Below are positions 29,615 through 49,095 of a DNA stretch of 64,000 nucleotides, one piece after another. Under the pieces are notes generated by a model. It was not told the origin of the DNA and made no database searches. It saw nothing but the letters and a program-made list of their open reading frames with translations. The stretch spans positions 96,001-160,000 of the IMG/VR virus record IMGVR_UViG_3300042010_000129; one strand, written 5' to 3'. Numbering within the stretch: position 1 is the stretch's first letter; each line of letters begins with the position of its first letter. Made by a program: the position numbers and the translations under genes. The stretch is from a virus (Duplodnaviria; Caudoviricetes).

Positions 29615-29626
29615 TATTTACAGTTT
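29615..29626 (-). promoter_or_regulatory. AAACTGTAAATA motif, putative phage promoter
   Basis: Exact 12-mer, intergenic, after a TGA stop. Confidence 0.6.
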
Positions 29627-31493: not shown

Positions 31494-31505
31494 TATTTAC
31501 AGTTT
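31494..31505 (-). promoter_or_regulatory. AAACTGTAAATA motif
   Basis: Exact 12-mer overlapping a TAA stop; embedded in palindrome ACTGTA-N4-TACAGT. Confidence 0.6.
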
Positions 31506-35785: not shown

Positions 35786-35818
35786 GGGTCAGAAAAATCC
35801 TGACCCTTTGTATTTACA
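35786..35818 (-). promoter_or_regulatory. TGTAAATA motif variant followed by a 7-bp hairpin
   Basis: TAA-TGTAAATA-CAAA-GGGTCAG-N7-CTGACCC. Confidence 0.5.
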
Positions 35819-36433
35819 TTATTCGGTGCGGTCGATGCGCCCTTGCTGCTGTTCGTAATCGCCTTCAGACCACGCCGGGGCATCAGGATCGTTTGCTTCC
35901 TCAACTTCGCGTGCGTGCATTTCTTCGTACATCGCTTTATCAGGATGTGGAATACCCGCGACAACCATTTCCATGCACTGCGGGCAATGGTACATACCCA
36001 TCGGCGCACCACACCACATTTCCGGATGTTCGATACACTCGCCGTTGTTTTTGTACACGCGGAAAACAACGGTGCGGATGTTGCCGGTTTCTTCGTTCTT
36101 CAACACACGGAACGCGGTGTGGAATTCGTCCCAGTCGTATTTGAGCGCATGCGTAAAAGCACCGATCAATTTCATTTGTTCTTCTTGCTGATCAGCGGTG
36201 CCCGACAGACAGAAAACGAAAGTCAGACATTGCGTGGTCGGCTCGCCTTTTCCTTCGATGAAAAAGTTTTTGCCGTCTTTGTAGCGGAAGGGCACGATGC
36301 TGGTCGGCCCGGCGATGGAATCGAAAGAAATGCCGAGTGCTTCACCGTCGAACGGCGGCAGTTCCACATCCCACAAAACATCACGCTGCGTACCGTTGAA
36401 AACTACGACGACTTCACCTTTAACCAACGACAT
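35819..36433 (-). CDS. Hypothetical protein with Cys/His cluster
   Basis: Start MSLVKG; WCGAPMGMYHCPQC motif. Confidence 0.55.
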   Translation of the reverse strand: MSLVKGEVVVVFNGTQRDVLWDVELPPFDGEALGISFDSIAGPTSIVPFRYKDGKNFFIEGKGEPTTQCLTFVFCLSGTADQQEEQMKLIGAFTHALKYDWDEFHTAFRVLKNEETGNIRTVVFRVYKNNGECIEHPEMWCGAPMGMYHCPQCMEMVVAGIPHPDKAMYEEMHAREVEEANDPDAPAWSEGDYEQQQGRIDRTE

Positions 36434-36860
36434 AAAACACCTCAGTAAATGATTGAATTGTTCGTGCGACCAAAGCCTGCACAATCGAATCGTCCGACTG
36501 GTAAGGCAAGCACGGATCATCCCACACGTCAGGCAGCGAATAATCGCCGTCGTAATTCGGTTCGAGCCATAGCAGGCCCTCTTCTTCCCGGTGGCCTTGC
36601 GGGCAGCATTTGATAACGCATTCGCGCATTTCCACACCGTACAGACGCATCAACTGGTGTTCGCTAATGTAATGCTGCTGGCCGTCGTTTTTACTGATCA
36701 CATAATTGGGAACGATCAGGAAATGTTTTTCATTCTGCGAACGAATTTGAGGACGACGCGCCATCATTTCCTCGACTGCTGCTTTCCCGTGAGGCGACCG
36801 CATGTAGTCGATTATTTCCTGTTGGTGTGGCGGAAGTTCAACGCCTTTGTGTTTGGTCAT
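36420..36860 (-). CDS. Hypothetical protein
   Basis: ATGA overlap with the AmrZ-like gene. Confidence 0.55.
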   Translation of the reverse strand: MTKHKGVELPPHQQEIIDYMRSPHGKAAVEEMMARRPQIRSQNEKHFLIVPNYVISKNDGQQHYISEHQLMRLYGVEMRECVIKCCPQGHREEEGLLWLEPNYDGDYSLPDVWDDPCLPYQSDDSIVQALVARTIQSFTEVFYVVG

Positions 36861-37528
36861 GGTTTTGGTGCTTCCAAATCCGTCGCCAAAACTTCTACGC
36901 AACCGCCGCCTTGCATTTCCACGCGGGCCATCACCCTTTGCTGTGTGAGACTTCCGCCGATCCACATGTGGCGCACGATGCCGTTACGCCGTGCAGTGCT
37001 GACGTAAACCGGCATGCCTTCCTGCGCAATAAATTGTGGCTTCGGTGGCAAATAATCCGGGCCGTATGCGCGGGGCAGCGACTTGATAGCGGCTTCCAGT
37101 TTTTCGAAGGTCATACAGTTGATATCCGAAACTTCGAGCTTAGGAAGTCCCTGCACGTTTACCGGTTTCGGCATCGCCAGAACTTCTTTGATTTCTGCTT
37201 CGAGTTTCGTGCCGTCAACATCGTGAGCGTGAGAATCGAATTCGACCGCGCTATGGAACCAGTCACCGACTTCAAGCAAACGCACGAACAGCGCACGCAT
37301 TACCCGGTTCTGTGCTTCCAGTTCTGCACTGCTGCGCAGCGAATCTAGGCTAGGAATGGTGCCGGTTTGTTTATGAATTTCCAGCATCATTTCAATCCAC
37401 GAAATGATTTCACTGTTCATGCTGCGGTGCTGGCTGTCCGCGATGGATTTGATTTCTTCACGCATGCCGTCCAAAAGACGCAACACGAATTTATCGGCGG
37501 TACGGCTGCTGTATGTTTTTGCACTCAC
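36857..37528 (-). CDS. amrZ: AmrZ-like Arc/ribbon-helix-helix regulator with long C-terminal extension
   Basis: TYSSRTADKFVLRLLDGMREEIKSIADSQHRSMNSEII closely matches Pseudomonas AmrZ as recalled. Confidence 0.85.
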   Translation of the reverse strand: MSAKTYSSRTADKFVLRLLDGMREEIKSIADSQHRSMNSEIISWIEMMLEIHKQTGTIPSLDSLRSSAELEAQNRVMRALFVRLLEVGDWFHSAVEFDSHAHDVDGTKLEAEIKEVLAMPKPVNVQGLPKLEVSDINCMTFEKLEAAIKSLPRAYGPDYLPPKPQFIAQEGMPVYVSTARRNGIVRHMWIGGSLTQQRVMARVEMQGGGCVEVLATDLEAPKP

Positions 37529-37530
37529 GA

Positions 37531-38307
37531 TTATTTCCCCACCAAAGCCATTGCCAGCTGATCATCCAGCGACGGTTTATTGCGCAGATTGATCTTGAAA
37601 TATTTGCGAGTCAGTTGCTCAAGGCTCGCCAGTTCCCGCGCCACCGGATCACTCGAAGTTTGTTGCACGACGCATTCCACTTCTTTGATGGTGGTGATTC
37701 CGTATTTGAAAATGTACGGCAGGAAAAGTTTGTACGGGCCGAAGGTGCAAATCGCTTTCTTGCAAACGGTGCCCGGCACACGTTTTTCCGGCCACGTTTC
37801 TTGCAGAACTTTGATCACGTCGTCAACGGTTTTTACCTGCTTGTATTCATGCAGATAATCCATTTCGATTATGCCTTCGTCCTCATAATGCAAACTGAAC
37901 AGACGATCCCCGTTCAACTTCAGCGAAAACGCTGCATGCCATGGGCTGTCGAAGAAACGCTTTTTGACCGGTCGGCGATTTTTACGCGGAGGCCTCTTTG
38001 CAGGCTGCACCGTATGTACGCCCATTTCGTACAAACGAATTTCAATGGCGTCACACAGAGCGCTAAACGCAGCAAGATCAGCTTTGATTTTGTCTGCGTA
38101 AATCAGAACCTGTTTGAGGATTGTGGCGTCCATTGTGCGCGACGTGTACGTGTGTTCTTTGTCGTTGCAGACGACACGCACCCGGCCATCGAAAGTCAGC
38201 AACGATACGTCGATGTGATGGAACGCCAAGCGATCCCCACGCTGGCGGTGAAAGCCGTACTCAAGCAGCTGCGCGATCAGACCTGCGCGTTTTTCTTCCT
38301 GACTCAT
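37531..38307 (-). CDS. Hypothetical protein
   Basis: 258 aa. Confidence 0.6.
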   Translation of the reverse strand: MSQEEKRAGLIAQLLEYGFHRQRGDRLAFHHIDVSLLTFDGRVRVVCNDKEHTYTSRTMDATILKQVLIYADKIKADLAAFSALCDAIEIRLYEMGVHTVQPAKRPPRKNRRPVKKRFFDSPWHAAFSLKLNGDRLFSLHYEDEGIIEMDYLHEYKQVKTVDDVIKVLQETWPEKRVPGTVCKKAICTFGPYKLFLPYIFKYGITTIKEVECVVQQTSSDPVARELASLEQLTRKYFKINLRNKPSLDDQLAMALVGK

Positions 38308-39149
38308 GCAAAATCCCCTTGGCCCGACACTTCCAAAGCAGCAGTTTTCTTTTTGATGTACTCGAAGAATTCTTCGGTGGTAATCGCACGGCGCAACTTG
38401 ATTTCCGTGTAATGCATAGGTTCCGGGTAATCCTTCACCAGTTCGTGCAGGTCGGCGTTTTCCGTCGAGAACCGTTGCACGTTTGCCACGCGGTCGATAA
38501 CGCTGGTCACGCCATGGGTGAACATGAACGGCACGAAATCTTCGTGAGATTTGAACGTGATAATGGATTTGCCTTTGAACACAATGCGTTCGTCGGTGCC
38601 CGGCCAGTATTGCGTCTTGGAACCCAGCAGAATTTCGAATACTTCGTCCGCTGTTTCTACGTCGTAATCTTCGAACTGAATGTTCATCACGGTTTTGTTT
38701 CTGGCCCCGGCATACGCCAGATCAAACAGCGGTTCGGCCTTGTACGCATTCGTGTAGAACTTGCACACGTGCGTATCAACGTCGTCACGCTTCCAGAAAC
38801 CGATTACGCCCATTTGTTTTGCCCGGTGCAGGACGTCGGCACGCAGCGCATCGTAGGCCACCACGGACGAAGCACGCAACGCCATTTCTGATTCGATATA
38901 GGCCACGATTTCTTCGGCTGGCGTTTCTTGTGGCACCATCGAAAAGTTTTTGTACGTCACGATATCAACCGTGATTTCGTCGGCTGCAATTCGCACGCAC
39001 GCGTTGTCGTCGGTTTTCAGTTCATAAAGCATGTCGTCATCGTCAGACCATTCGGCGCGGACGAACTTGTTTTTCTTCAGGCACGCAGTGAGCGCAGGAC
39101 GACGGATAGGTTTCAATTTCTTAGCCATTTTTCTTGCACTCACTTGCAC
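38304..39149 (-). CDS. Hypothetical protein
   Basis: 281 aa; ATGA overlap. Confidence 0.6.
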   Translation of the reverse strand: MQVSARKMAKKLKPIRRPALTACLKKNKFVRAEWSDDDDMLYELKTDDNACVRIAADEITVDIVTYKNFSMVPQETPAEEIVAYIESEMALRASSVVAYDALRADVLHRAKQMGVIGFWKRDDVDTHVCKFYTNAYKAEPLFDLAYAGARNKTVMNIQFEDYDVETADEVFEILLGSKTQYWPGTDERIVFKGKSIITFKSHEDFVPFMFTHGVTSVIDRVANVQRFSTENADLHELVKDYPEPMHYTEIKLRRAITTEEFFEYIKKKTAALEVSGQGDFA

Positions 39150-41933: not shown

Positions 41934-42125
41934 TTACGGTTCCTGCTGCCAATCGGCTTCGATCAGCTGCACTTTGAAGTTGCGCGCCAGTATTCGGCTT
42001 TCCGCCAAGGTGAATTGTCGGGCGCGTAGTCTGCTTTTGCATGTGTAAACCTTGTCTTCGGTAATCTTGAAAATGTAGGAGCCTTCTGAAAGCCTCGCTA
42101 CATATTTACAGTTTTTGTTGTCCAT
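41934..42125 (-). CDS. Hypothetical protein
   Basis: 63 aa; start uncertain. Confidence 0.4.
   Translation of the reverse strand: MDNKNCKYVARLSEGSYIFKITEDKVYTCKSRLRARQFTLAESRILARNFKVQLIEADWQQEP
42103..42114 (-). promoter_or_regulatory. AAACTGTAAATA motif
   Basis: Exact 12-mer overlapping a TAA stop. Confidence 0.55.
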
Positions 42126-49083: not shown

Positions 49084-49095
49084 TATTTACAGTTT
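49084..49095 (-). promoter_or_regulatory. AAACTGTAAATA motif
   Basis: Exact 12-mer, intergenic, after a TGA stop. Confidence 0.6.

What the first reader, a model, noticed from the sequence alone, without database searches (positions are those of the whole stretch)
36857..37528. Phage-encoded AmrZ mimic with a long novel C-terminal extension
Seen: the N-terminal 38 aa are TYSSRTADKFVLRLLDGMREEIKSIADSQHRSMNSEII. By hand, about 29 of 38 match P. aeruginosa AmrZ as I recall it, including the extended N-arm and the DNA-reading beta strand. Established: AmrZ controls alginate, Psl/Pel, flagella, pili and c-di-GMP genes and represses type I-F CRISPR-Cas, and phage AmrZ homologues have been reported to repress CRISPR. 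Seen: the protein is 223 aa versus about 108 aa for the host, and its C-terminal half does not resemble the host tetramerisation domain. Inference: a host-regulon hijacker or dominant-negative heterodimer with an extra effector domain.
Basis: partly seen in the sequence, partly recalled or inferred. Interest (0 to 1): 0.72.

Follow-up and report, generated by a model that had tools for sequence, protein, structure and literature searches.

The report
Jumbo-phage AmrZ-like regulator with added domains
A giant Pseudomonas phage carries a real copy of the DNA-reading head of the host's master biofilm/motility regulator AmrZ, joined to two phage-specific domains instead of the host's own tail, so it is a new architectural variant of the already known phage "AmrZ mimics".

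Summary
Window 36857-37528 (minus strand) is a 223-aa gene. Eleven of the 12 AmrZ residues that contact DNA, support those contacts or join the two dimers are identical, and these 11 are invariant across 18 homologues.

The host's C-terminal tetramerisation and SadB-binding domain is absent. In its place are two parts:
- an acidic helix-loop-helix module of about 50 aa, which also occurs alone in small phage proteins of unknown function;
- a confident Tudor/KOW-like beta-barrel of about 60 aa.

The window belongs to a Lu11/HRDY3-like Pseudomonas jumbo phage. The three-part protein is a syntenic, conserved gene of that clade. It is present in HRDY3 and in large metagenomic contigs, and absent from Lu11. 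It lies inside a translationally coupled operon behind a phage-specific promoter-like motif.

Best reading: a sequence-specific regulator that uses AmrZ-type GGC operators, most likely on host AmrZ targets and free of host SadB/Lon control. Regulation of the phage's own genes is not excluded.

Phage AmrZ homologues of 126-146 aa are already published, so this is a new variant of a known kind. CRISPR repression and dominant-negative pairing remain untested. This scan had flagged the same stretch once before, on the same genome only.

The parts
36857..37528 (-). CDS of the 223-aa AmrZ-like protein (GTG start at 37528, TGA stop at 36859-36857)
   Evidence: full-length homologues; HRDY3 orthologue
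37379..37528 (-). [quoted passage not shown]
   Evidence: Pfam Arc E 6.5e-14; AmrZ 3QOQ E 3.8e-13; 69% identity to P. aeruginosa AmrZ. AmrZ Y11, S13, R14, K18, V20, R22, R28, H39, R40, N43 and E51 are all identical and invariant here.
37331..37378 (-). aa 51-66: conserved linker (HKQTGxIPxLDxLRS)
   Evidence: 80% mean identity across A1
37172..37330 (-). aa 67-119: acidic helix-loop-helix module (LLxxGxW[FYH]xSAxE[LF]D ... [VI]DGExxExE[IL]). It also occurs alone or in other fusions in small phage and metagenome proteins.
   Evidence: Profile search; sequences and alignment; AF2 model at pLDDT 81; net charge -6; tblastn hits to small proteins of Vibrio and Pseudoalteromonas phages
37040..37171 (-). 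aa 120-163: variable, poorly modelled linker, partly deleted in some homologues
36860..37039 (-). aa 164-223: Tudor/KOW/SH3-like beta-barrel
   Evidence: pLDDT 82-90; VIA Z 7.7, rmsd 2.4 over 56 aa to the ERCC6-L2 Tudor domain, then SMN Tudor and Spt5/NusG KOW; Foldseek UvrD C-terminal Tudor domain TM 0.70; CarD_TRCF_RID clusters among ESM Atlas structural neighbours
37536..37540 (-). SD-like GGGGA 7 nt before the GTG; the upstream gene's TAA stop lies at 37533-37531
   Evidence: read from the sequence
36857..36860 (-). ATGA overlap: the stop of this gene overlaps the ATG of the downstream 146-aa gene (phrog_7644), indicating translational coupling
42103..42110 (-). Promoter-like motif (AAAAC)TGTAAATA at the head of the minus-strand unit that holds the gene. 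The next copy, at 35811-35818, starts the following unit.
   Evidence: 6 copies against 1.2 expected, 5 of them intergenic on the minus strand. The same 11-mer occurs 21 times in Lu11 and 10 times in HRDY3, control 0. It coincides with the start of Lu11's annotated 'putative middle/late promoter' feature.

Best explanation
The gene encodes a sequence-specific DNA-binding regulator of a Lu11/HRDY3-like Pseudomonas jumbo phage. Its N-terminal 50 aa form an AmrZ-type ribbon-helix-helix. As in AmrZ, it should dimerise, insert a two-stranded sheet into the major groove and read 5'-GGC half-sites through K13, V15 and R17 (AmrZ K18, V20, R22). The N-arm (Y6, S8, R9) assists, and the dimer-dimer contacts are kept (H34, R35, E46). 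The host C-terminal domain is replaced. That domain tetramerises AmrZ and carries the SadB-binding motif that sends AmrZ to Lon. In its place are a phage-specific acidic helical module and a Tudor/KOW-like barrel. These most likely supply oligomerisation and/or a protein partner. Expressed from a phage operon during infection, the protein most likely occupies host AmrZ operators (motility, exopolysaccharide, c-di-GMP and, where present, cas genes). It would do so independently of host control of AmrZ level. Shown: the gene, its domains, residue conservation, synteny and clade distribution. Inferred: DNA specificity, host targets, escape from SadB/Lon and the role of the two extra domains.
For: Arc domain and AmrZ as the only PDB sequence hit. 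69% identity to P. aeruginosa AmrZ over aa 5-49, and 65-76% to chromosomal Pseudomonas AmrZ proteins generally. Eleven of the 12 AmrZ residues that contact DNA, support those contacts or join the dimers (PMC3325190) are identical and invariant in 18 homologues; the twelfth is E25 to D20. Even 37-50% identical family members keep YSSRTADKFVVRLPDGMR...HRSMNS. Shorter phage AmrZ homologues complement a delta-amrZ strain, and three of them repress Csy (10.1101/673095). Phage PhiPA1019 Gp53, an AmrZ-like RHH of 126 aa, binds the fleQ, pslA, amrZ and ftsZ promoters (PMC13650114). The AmrZ C-terminal domain is needed for tetramerisation and is the SadB/Lon handle (PMC12075610); no trace of it is present here. 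The three-module architecture is conserved and syntenic in large phage contigs and in HRDY3.
Against: No binding or expression data exist. The AmrZ-type GGC-N5-GCC pattern cannot be assessed on host DNA here, because no host genome is linked. The gene lies about 4.6 kb inside an operon behind a motif that Lu11's annotators call a putative middle/late promoter, which is not the classical place for an early host-takeover gene. Lu11 itself lacks the gene, so it is not essential to the clade. In the window's own subclade the strand reads VLRLL instead of VVRLP, which could shift affinity. Gp53 and AmrZ are reported to be functionally non-identical despite shared targets.
Confidence: 0.55

Rival explanations
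1. It regulates the phage's own genes. The AmrZ-like head recognises operators on the phage genome, for example to time or shut off phage transcription units. The similarity to AmrZ then reflects common descent, not mimicry of host sites.
For: It is a conserved, syntenic gene embedded in a phage operon. Arc and Mnt-type RHH proteins are classical phage self-regulators. It sits behind a phage-specific promoter motif.
Against: GGC-N5-GCC sites are not enriched in the 64-kb window (19 found, 17.8 expected) and none sits at the promoter motifs. Strict retention of every AmrZ base-reading residue across members as low as 37% identical fits a fixed external target. Only about a fifth of the phage genome could be examined.
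Confidence: 0.3
2. It is a dominant-negative poison of host AmrZ. The phage RHH forms mixed dimers or mixed tetramers with host AmrZ and inactivates or redirects it.
For: The RHH is 69% identical to AmrZ, the core hydrophobic positions are conserved, and the dimer-dimer residues H34, R35 and E46 are retained.
Against: RHH dimers are intertwined and usually fold together during synthesis. The end of helix B differs systematically (ISWIEMxLEIH against IARLEQSLxQE). The host tetramerisation domain is missing, so contacts through that domain are impossible. Nothing here tests this directly.
Confidence: 0.1
3. It is an RNA-polymerase-tethering factor. The Tudor-like barrel binds the RNAP beta subunit, as the CarD, Mfd and UvrD Tudor-like domains do. 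AmrZ-type sites would then become points where host RNAP is recruited or stalled.
For: The barrel's Foldseek neighbours include the UvrD C-terminal Tudor domain bound to the RNAP lobe (TM 0.70, rmsd 2.6), CdnL and Mfd. Five of the ten ESM Atlas structural-neighbour rows carry CarD_TRCF_RID.
Against: All E-values are weak (0.05 or worse). Eukaryotic Tudor and KOW domains score as well or better (Z 7.3-7.7). No sequence match to PF02559 was found. Small SH3-like barrels are ubiquitous in phages.
Confidence: 0.1
4. It is a ParG-like centromere-binding or antitoxin-type RHH protein. PHROG labels such as 'partition protein ATPase' hint at this.
For: phrog_2685 and phrog_795 carry that label and match aa 2-87 and 4-55. 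ParD-like and FitA-like Pfam models match weakly in distant family members.
Against: No ParA/ParF ATPase gene and no toxin gene lies next to it. The matched PHROG members are small RHH proteins, so the label is an annotation artefact. The best hits are AmrZ proteins specifically.
Confidence: 0.03

Closest known systems
AmrZ (AlgZ) of Pseudomonas aeruginosa, 108 aa, PDB 3QOQ
   Same: Arc-type RHH with an extended N-arm. 31/45 identity. K18, V20 and R22, the N-arm Y11, S13 and R14, the backbone contacts R28 and N43, and the dimer-dimer residues H39, R40 and E51 are all identical.
   Different: Twice as long. It lacks AmrZ residues 67-108, which hold the tetramerisation domain and the SadB/Lon motif Q91/A94/L95. 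It carries a helical module and a Tudor-like barrel instead. It is phage-encoded and sits in an operon, not behind an AlgU-dependent autoregulated promoter.
Published phage and plasmid AmrZ homologues (PaBG gp302, phi3, JBD68, Noxifer gp106; Borges et al., 10.1101/673095) and PhiPA1019 Gp53 (PMC13650114)
   Same: Phage-borne AmrZ-like RHH with conserved DNA-contact residues. PaBG belongs to the same wider jumbo-phage group as Lu11.
   Different: Those proteins are 126-146 aa and share only the RHH with this one. None has the middle module or the barrel. Their function was tested; this one's was not.
Pseudomonas phage HRDY3 XDJ14992.1, 'Arc-like DNA binding domain protein', 205 aa
   Same: True orthologue: 37.6% identity over 98% of the length, the same three modules, and the same neighbours (two paralogous genes upstream, a glutathionylspermidine-synthase-like gene and a NUDIX gene downstream).
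   Different: Divergent sequence, shorter variable linker, and only a generic annotation with no study found.
Bacterial Tudor-like RNAP-interacting domains (CarD/CdnL N-terminal domain, Mfd RID, UvrD C-terminal domain) and KOW domains (NusG/Spt5)
   Same: Five-stranded SH3-like barrel of about 55 aa, attached to a nucleic-acid-binding protein.
   Different: Fold-level resemblance only. There is no sequence-family match, and eukaryotic Tudor domains score equally well.
Mnt repressor of phage P22
   Same: A phage RHH repressor whose separate C-terminal domain mediates tetramerisation. It is a functional analogy for an RHH plus an added oligomerisation domain.
   Different: Unrelated C-terminal sequence, different operator specificity, and no barrel.

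Membership tests
Arc/MetJ ribbon-helix-helix superfamily (Pfam PF03869 Arc) | Significant match to the Arc-like DNA-binding domain profile | tested here: met
   E 6.5e-14, 52 bits against a cut-off of 20.4, aa 8-46
AmrZ family | Base-reading beta-strand residues K18, V20, R22 | tested here: met
   K13, V15 and R17 are identical and invariant in 18 homologues
AmrZ family | Extended N-terminus contributing Y11, S13 and R14 to DNA binding | tested here: met
   Y6, S8 and R9 are identical and invariant. Only 5 residues precede Y6, against 10 in AmrZ.
AmrZ family | Dimer-of-dimers interface residues H39, R40, E51 | tested here: met
   H34, R35 and E46 are identical and invariant
AmrZ family | C-terminal domain (residues 67-108) that mediates tetramerisation and carries the SadB-binding motif Q91/A94/L95 | tested here: not met
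   BLASTP to P. aeruginosa AmrZ aligns aa 5-49 only. The multiple alignment with AmrZ-like proteins shows no shared C-terminal columns.
AmrZ family | Binding to amrZ/algD/fleQ operators and complementation of a delta-amrZ strain | not testable with these tools
   Needs EMSA, DAP-seq and genetics
Mobile AmrZ homologues acting as CRISPR-Cas repressors (Borges et al.) | Repression of the type I-F csy/cas3 genes | not testable with these tools
   Three of the six synthesised homologues (PaBG, phi3, JBD68) repressed Csy; five of six complemented delta-amrZ. The host of this phage and its CRISPR content are unknown.
Tudor/KOW/SH3-like small barrels | Five-stranded barrel fold | tested here: met
   pLDDT 82-90. 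VIA Z 7.7 (rmsd 2.4, 56 aa) to 6hq9_B and Z 7.6 (rmsd 1.8, 52 aa) to 4qq6_A. This is fold level only, and Z is below 8.
CarD_TRCF_RID (PF02559) RNAP-interacting domain | Profile match, or a clear and specific structural match | tested here: inconclusive
   No Pfam hit at E up to 10. Structural neighbours include RID-bearing clusters and the UvrD, CdnL and Mfd domains, but at weak scores.
ParG/ParD-type partition or antitoxin RHH | Adjacent ParA-type ATPase or toxin partner | tested here: not met
   The neighbours have no such families in Pfam, PHROGs or PADLOC

The most novel reading that the evidence does not exclude
The protein is a bipartite hijacker. The AmrZ head parks it on the host's AmrZ operator set. 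The Tudor-like barrel, perhaps with the acidic module, grips host RNA polymerase or another host factor. The phage would thereby rewire a whole host regulon in a way the host's own AmrZ cannot, while evading SadB/Lon turnover. The stand-alone copies of the middle module in other phages would then be free-floating binders of that same host target.
Probability: 0.12. Interest if true: 0.78.

Novelty: new variant of a known kind. Interest (0 to 1): 0.5.

Why it matters
AmrZ sits at the hub of motility, exopolysaccharide, c-di-GMP and, in P. aeruginosa, CRISPR-Cas control. Phage copies of it are one of the few documented cases of a virus borrowing a host global regulator. This family shows that a whole clade of soil and plant Pseudomonas jumbo phages has kept the DNA-reading head almost letter-perfect while exchanging the regulatory tail for two other domains. 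It offers a natural experiment on what the AmrZ C-terminal domain does. It also provides a handle on an uncharacterised small phage module that is spread through Vibrio, Pseudoalteromonas and other phages. An isolate carrying an orthologue (HRDY3) exists, so the idea is directly testable.

Tried and rejected
- Megablast of 5 kb around the gene against phage records found no match. Only distant blastn and tblastn found HRDY3 and Lu11.
- No whole genome is held for the window, so only 64 kb of the roughly 290-kb phage could be scanned.
- Pfam, PHROGs and PDB sequence searches of aa 50-223 and of 17 homologues found nothing significant. PADLOC found nothing for the gene or five neighbours.
- The AF2 monomer of the full protein is poor outside the barrel (pLDDT 59.7). 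The RHH is mis-modelled as helices, as expected for an obligate dimer.
- Fold searches with the middle-module model gave only generic helical hairpins (VIA Z 5.4 or less; AFDB E above 1).
- AFDB Swiss-Prot hits to MutS2 reflect only 'long helices plus a KOW-like barrel' at rmsd about 30 A. BFVD gave only anonymous small barrels.
- Complex prediction on two copies of the middle module returned no verdict (score 0.27, mark 0.42). This says nothing either way about oligomerisation.
- AmrZ-type GGC-N5-GCC sites number 19 against 17.8 expected in the window. Tighter amrZ1-like patterns are at chance level.
- Sequencing-run search: the DNA is held by food, plant, rhizosphere and soil metagenomes. 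No RNA holder is listed, so there is no expression evidence.
- The ESM Atlas search by features gave no usable hit.
- No paper mentions HRDY3 or an RHH-Tudor phage fusion. The Lu11 genome note is not held.
- I did not build a tree of the 49-column RHH alignment. It has too few sites, and the shared three-module architecture already argues for a single origin.

Full report
**Observation**

The ORF at 36857..37528 on the minus strand encodes 223 aa from a GTG start. An SD-like GGGGA lies 7 nt upstream, and the stop codon of the preceding gene lies 2 nt before the GTG. The gene's own TGA overlaps the ATG of the next gene in an ATGA arrangement. It is therefore an internal, translationally coupled member of a minus-strand operon.

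Pfam finds an Arc-like domain at aa 8-46 (E 6.5e-14). The single PDB sequence hit is AmrZ (3QOQ, E 3.8e-13, aa 3-49). BLASTP against a 108-aa protein named AmrZ of P. aeruginosa gives 31/45 identities and no further similarity.

Eighteen full-length homologues (46-100% identity, 202-229 aa) occur on contigs up to 316 kb.

**What the DNA belongs to**

The window has no close relative among deposited phages. Distant searches match Pseudomonas jumbo phages HRDY3 (74% nucleotide identity over structural genes) and Lu11 (67%).

HRDY3 encodes a 205-aa 'Arc-like DNA binding domain protein' that is 37.6% identical over 98% of the query. It has the same neighbours: two roughly 280-aa genes upstream, and a glutathionylspermidine-synthase-like gene and a NUDIX gene downstream. 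Metagenomic relatives on 175-kb and 203-kb contigs show the same order. Lu11 has no copy. PaBG and Noxifer match only over the RHH.

Near-identical DNA is held by food, plant, rhizosphere and soil metagenomes from several studies. This fits a host among environmental pseudomonads.

**The AmrZ head**

The AmrZ-DNA structure paper (PMC3325190) names these residues:
- K18, V20 and R22 read the bases of 5'-GGC half-sites.
- Y11, S13 and R14 form the N-arm, with E25 stabilising it.
- R28 contacts the DNA backbone, and N43 positions R22.
- H39, R40 and E51 make the dimer-dimer contact.

With an offset of 5 these correspond to Y6, S8, R9, K13, V15, R17, D20, R23, H34, R35, N38 and E46. Eleven are identical and one (E25 to D20) is conservative. 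All eleven identical ones are invariant in the 18-sequence alignment.

More distant members recovered by a profile search, 37-50% identical overall, keep the same strand and often read YSSRTADKFVVRLPDGMR, exactly like cellular AmrZ. The nearest short proteins in a 5.8-billion-protein set are chromosomal Pseudomonas AmrZ proteins at 65-76% identity. No single species stands out. This argues for an old capture that has been maintained, not a recent one.

The inference that the protein binds AmrZ-type operators as a dimer, or a dimer of dimers, is therefore strong but not shown.

**The rest of the protein**

Nothing beyond residue 49 resembles AmrZ. A profile of aa 52-223 searched against 1.8 billion representatives found 28 proteins. 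They fall into three sets:
- About eight further proteins of roughly 200 aa with the same layout: Arc domain, middle module and barrel.
- About eighteen small proteins (60-158 aa) that share only aa 67-119. In these the segment stands alone or is fused to unrelated parts.
- One 802-aa protein with seven barrel-like repeats.

The shared segment carries the motif LLxxGxW[FYH]xSAxE[LF]D ... [VI]DGExxExE[IL]. It has a net charge of -6 and models as a helix-loop-helix hairpin (pLDDT 81). It has no informative structural neighbour.

One of the small proteins belongs to phrog_1273, of unknown function. It has relatives in 63 Vibrio and Pseudoalteromonas phage records. The middle part is therefore an independent, mobile phage module of unknown role.

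Residues 120-163 are variable and partly deleted in some homologues.

Residues 164-223 form a confident five-stranded barrel (pLDDT 82-90). Its best matches are:
- Tudor domains: Z 7.7, rmsd 2.4 over 56 aa to 6hq9_B, and Z 7.6 to SMN.
- KOW domains of Spt5 and NusG.
- Among Foldseek hits, the UvrD C-terminal Tudor domain bound to the RNAP lobe (TM 0.70), plus CdnL and Mfd.
- Several ESM Atlas structural neighbours carrying CarD_TRCF_RID.

All of these scores lie in the range where only a common fold can be claimed.

**Regulatory context**

The octamer TGTAAATA, usually preceded by AAAAC, occurs six times against 1.2 expected. Five copies are intergenic on the minus strand, each just ahead of a gene block. 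The copy at 42103-42110 heads the unit that contains this gene. The copy at 35811-35818 starts the next unit.

The 11-mer AACTGTAAATA occurs 21 times in Lu11 and 10 times in HRDY3, with none for the reversed control. Its first Lu11 site coincides with the start of the record's 'putative middle/late promoter' feature. In HRDY3 two copies bracket the unit that holds the orthologue.

The gene is thus probably transcribed from a phage-specific promoter class, not from an obvious sigma-70 early promoter. The timing itself is unknown.

**Mechanism**

Published work establishes several points:
- Pseudomonas phages and plasmids carry AmrZ homologues. Five of six tested homologues complement a delta-amrZ strain, and three repress Csy production (10.1101/673095).
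- A 126-aa AmrZ-like RHH from phage PhiPA1019 binds the fleQ, pslA, amrZ and ftsZ promoters and reshapes host physiology (PMC13650114).
- The AmrZ C-terminal domain mediates tetramerisation and carries the motif through which SadB delivers AmrZ to Lon (PMC12075610).

Against this background, the most economical reading is that this protein occupies AmrZ-type operators in the infected cell. It would be blind to the host's post-translational control of AmrZ. Its own C-terminal modules would supply oligomerisation and/or a partner. I put 0.55 on this composite statement, about 0.9 on 'AmrZ-specificity DNA-binding regulator', and roughly 0.45-0.5 on 'acts on host targets'.

The main rival is regulation of the phage's own genes (0.3). 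The window shows no excess of GGC-N5-GCC sites, but four fifths of the genome were not available. Dominant-negative pairing with host AmrZ (0.1) and RNAP tethering through the barrel (0.1) could coexist with the main model. A ParG-like or antitoxin role is unlikely (0.03).

CRISPR repression specifically is possible but speculative. The hosts of related isolates are P. putida and an unnamed pond-water Pseudomonas, and nothing links the phage to a host with a type I-F system.

**Comparison and novelty**

Works like: AmrZ and its published phage homologues. Membership: the protein meets every testable feature of the AmrZ DNA-binding domain but fails the C-terminal-domain feature. It is best called an AmrZ-type RHH fusion protein, not an AmrZ orthologue.

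The known phage homologues are 126-146 aa and share only the head. I found no paper on HRDY3 or on an RHH-Tudor fusion. This is a new variant of a known kind: interesting to phage-host regulation specialists but not categorically new.

The scan had flagged the same stretch once before, on the same genome only.

**Limits**

There are no expression data, no binding data and no host genome. A homodimer prediction for the middle module gave no verdict and is not used as evidence.

Noticed in passing
window 29615-29622, 31494-31501, 35811-35818, 42103-42110, 49084-49091 (all minus strand); also Lu11 and HRDY3: (AAAAC)TGTAAATA is an intergenic, strand-consistent promoter-like motif resembling the T4 late TATAAATA box. 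The 11-mer occurs 21 times in Lu11 and 10 times in HRDY3 (control 0). It coincides with the start of Lu11's annotated 'putative middle/late promoter' feature. Several copies are followed by a hairpin.
   Followed up: partly
window 37531-38307 (-) and 38304-39149 (-): The two genes just upstream of the AmrZ-like gene are distant paralogues (28% identity over 92 aa, E 4e-8). They have no family assignment, and the same pair precedes the orthologue in HRDY3.
   Followed up: partly
P0128-P0146 (metagenome proteins); Vibrio and Pseudoalteromonas phage records H15-H29: A module of about 45 aa (LLxxGxW[FY]xSAxELD...DGEELxxEI) exists as stand-alone 60-70-aa proteins. It also occurs in fusions with a Zn-ribbon-like N-terminus, with phrog_1273 and with other parts. 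It is an uncharacterised, widely spread phage module.
   Followed up: partly
P0136 (802 aa, metagenome): This protein has seven tandem stretches matching the barrel part of the profile. Weak Pfam hits are ORF29-like and RecO_N_2. It is a possible repeat protein built from the same small barrel.
   Followed up: no
Lu11 record JQ768459.1 (W01): Lu11 is the closest named relative after HRDY3, yet it has no detectable homologue of the three-module protein or of any AmrZ-like RHH. The gene is therefore accessory within the clade.
   Followed up: yes
window 36420-36860 (-) and 35819-36637 (-): The downstream coupled genes match only PHROGs of unknown function (phrog_7644; phrog_34602 and phrog_29033). 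The second has a Cys-rich stretch near its C-terminus (CPQC) with a weak zinc-finger hit.
   Followed up: no
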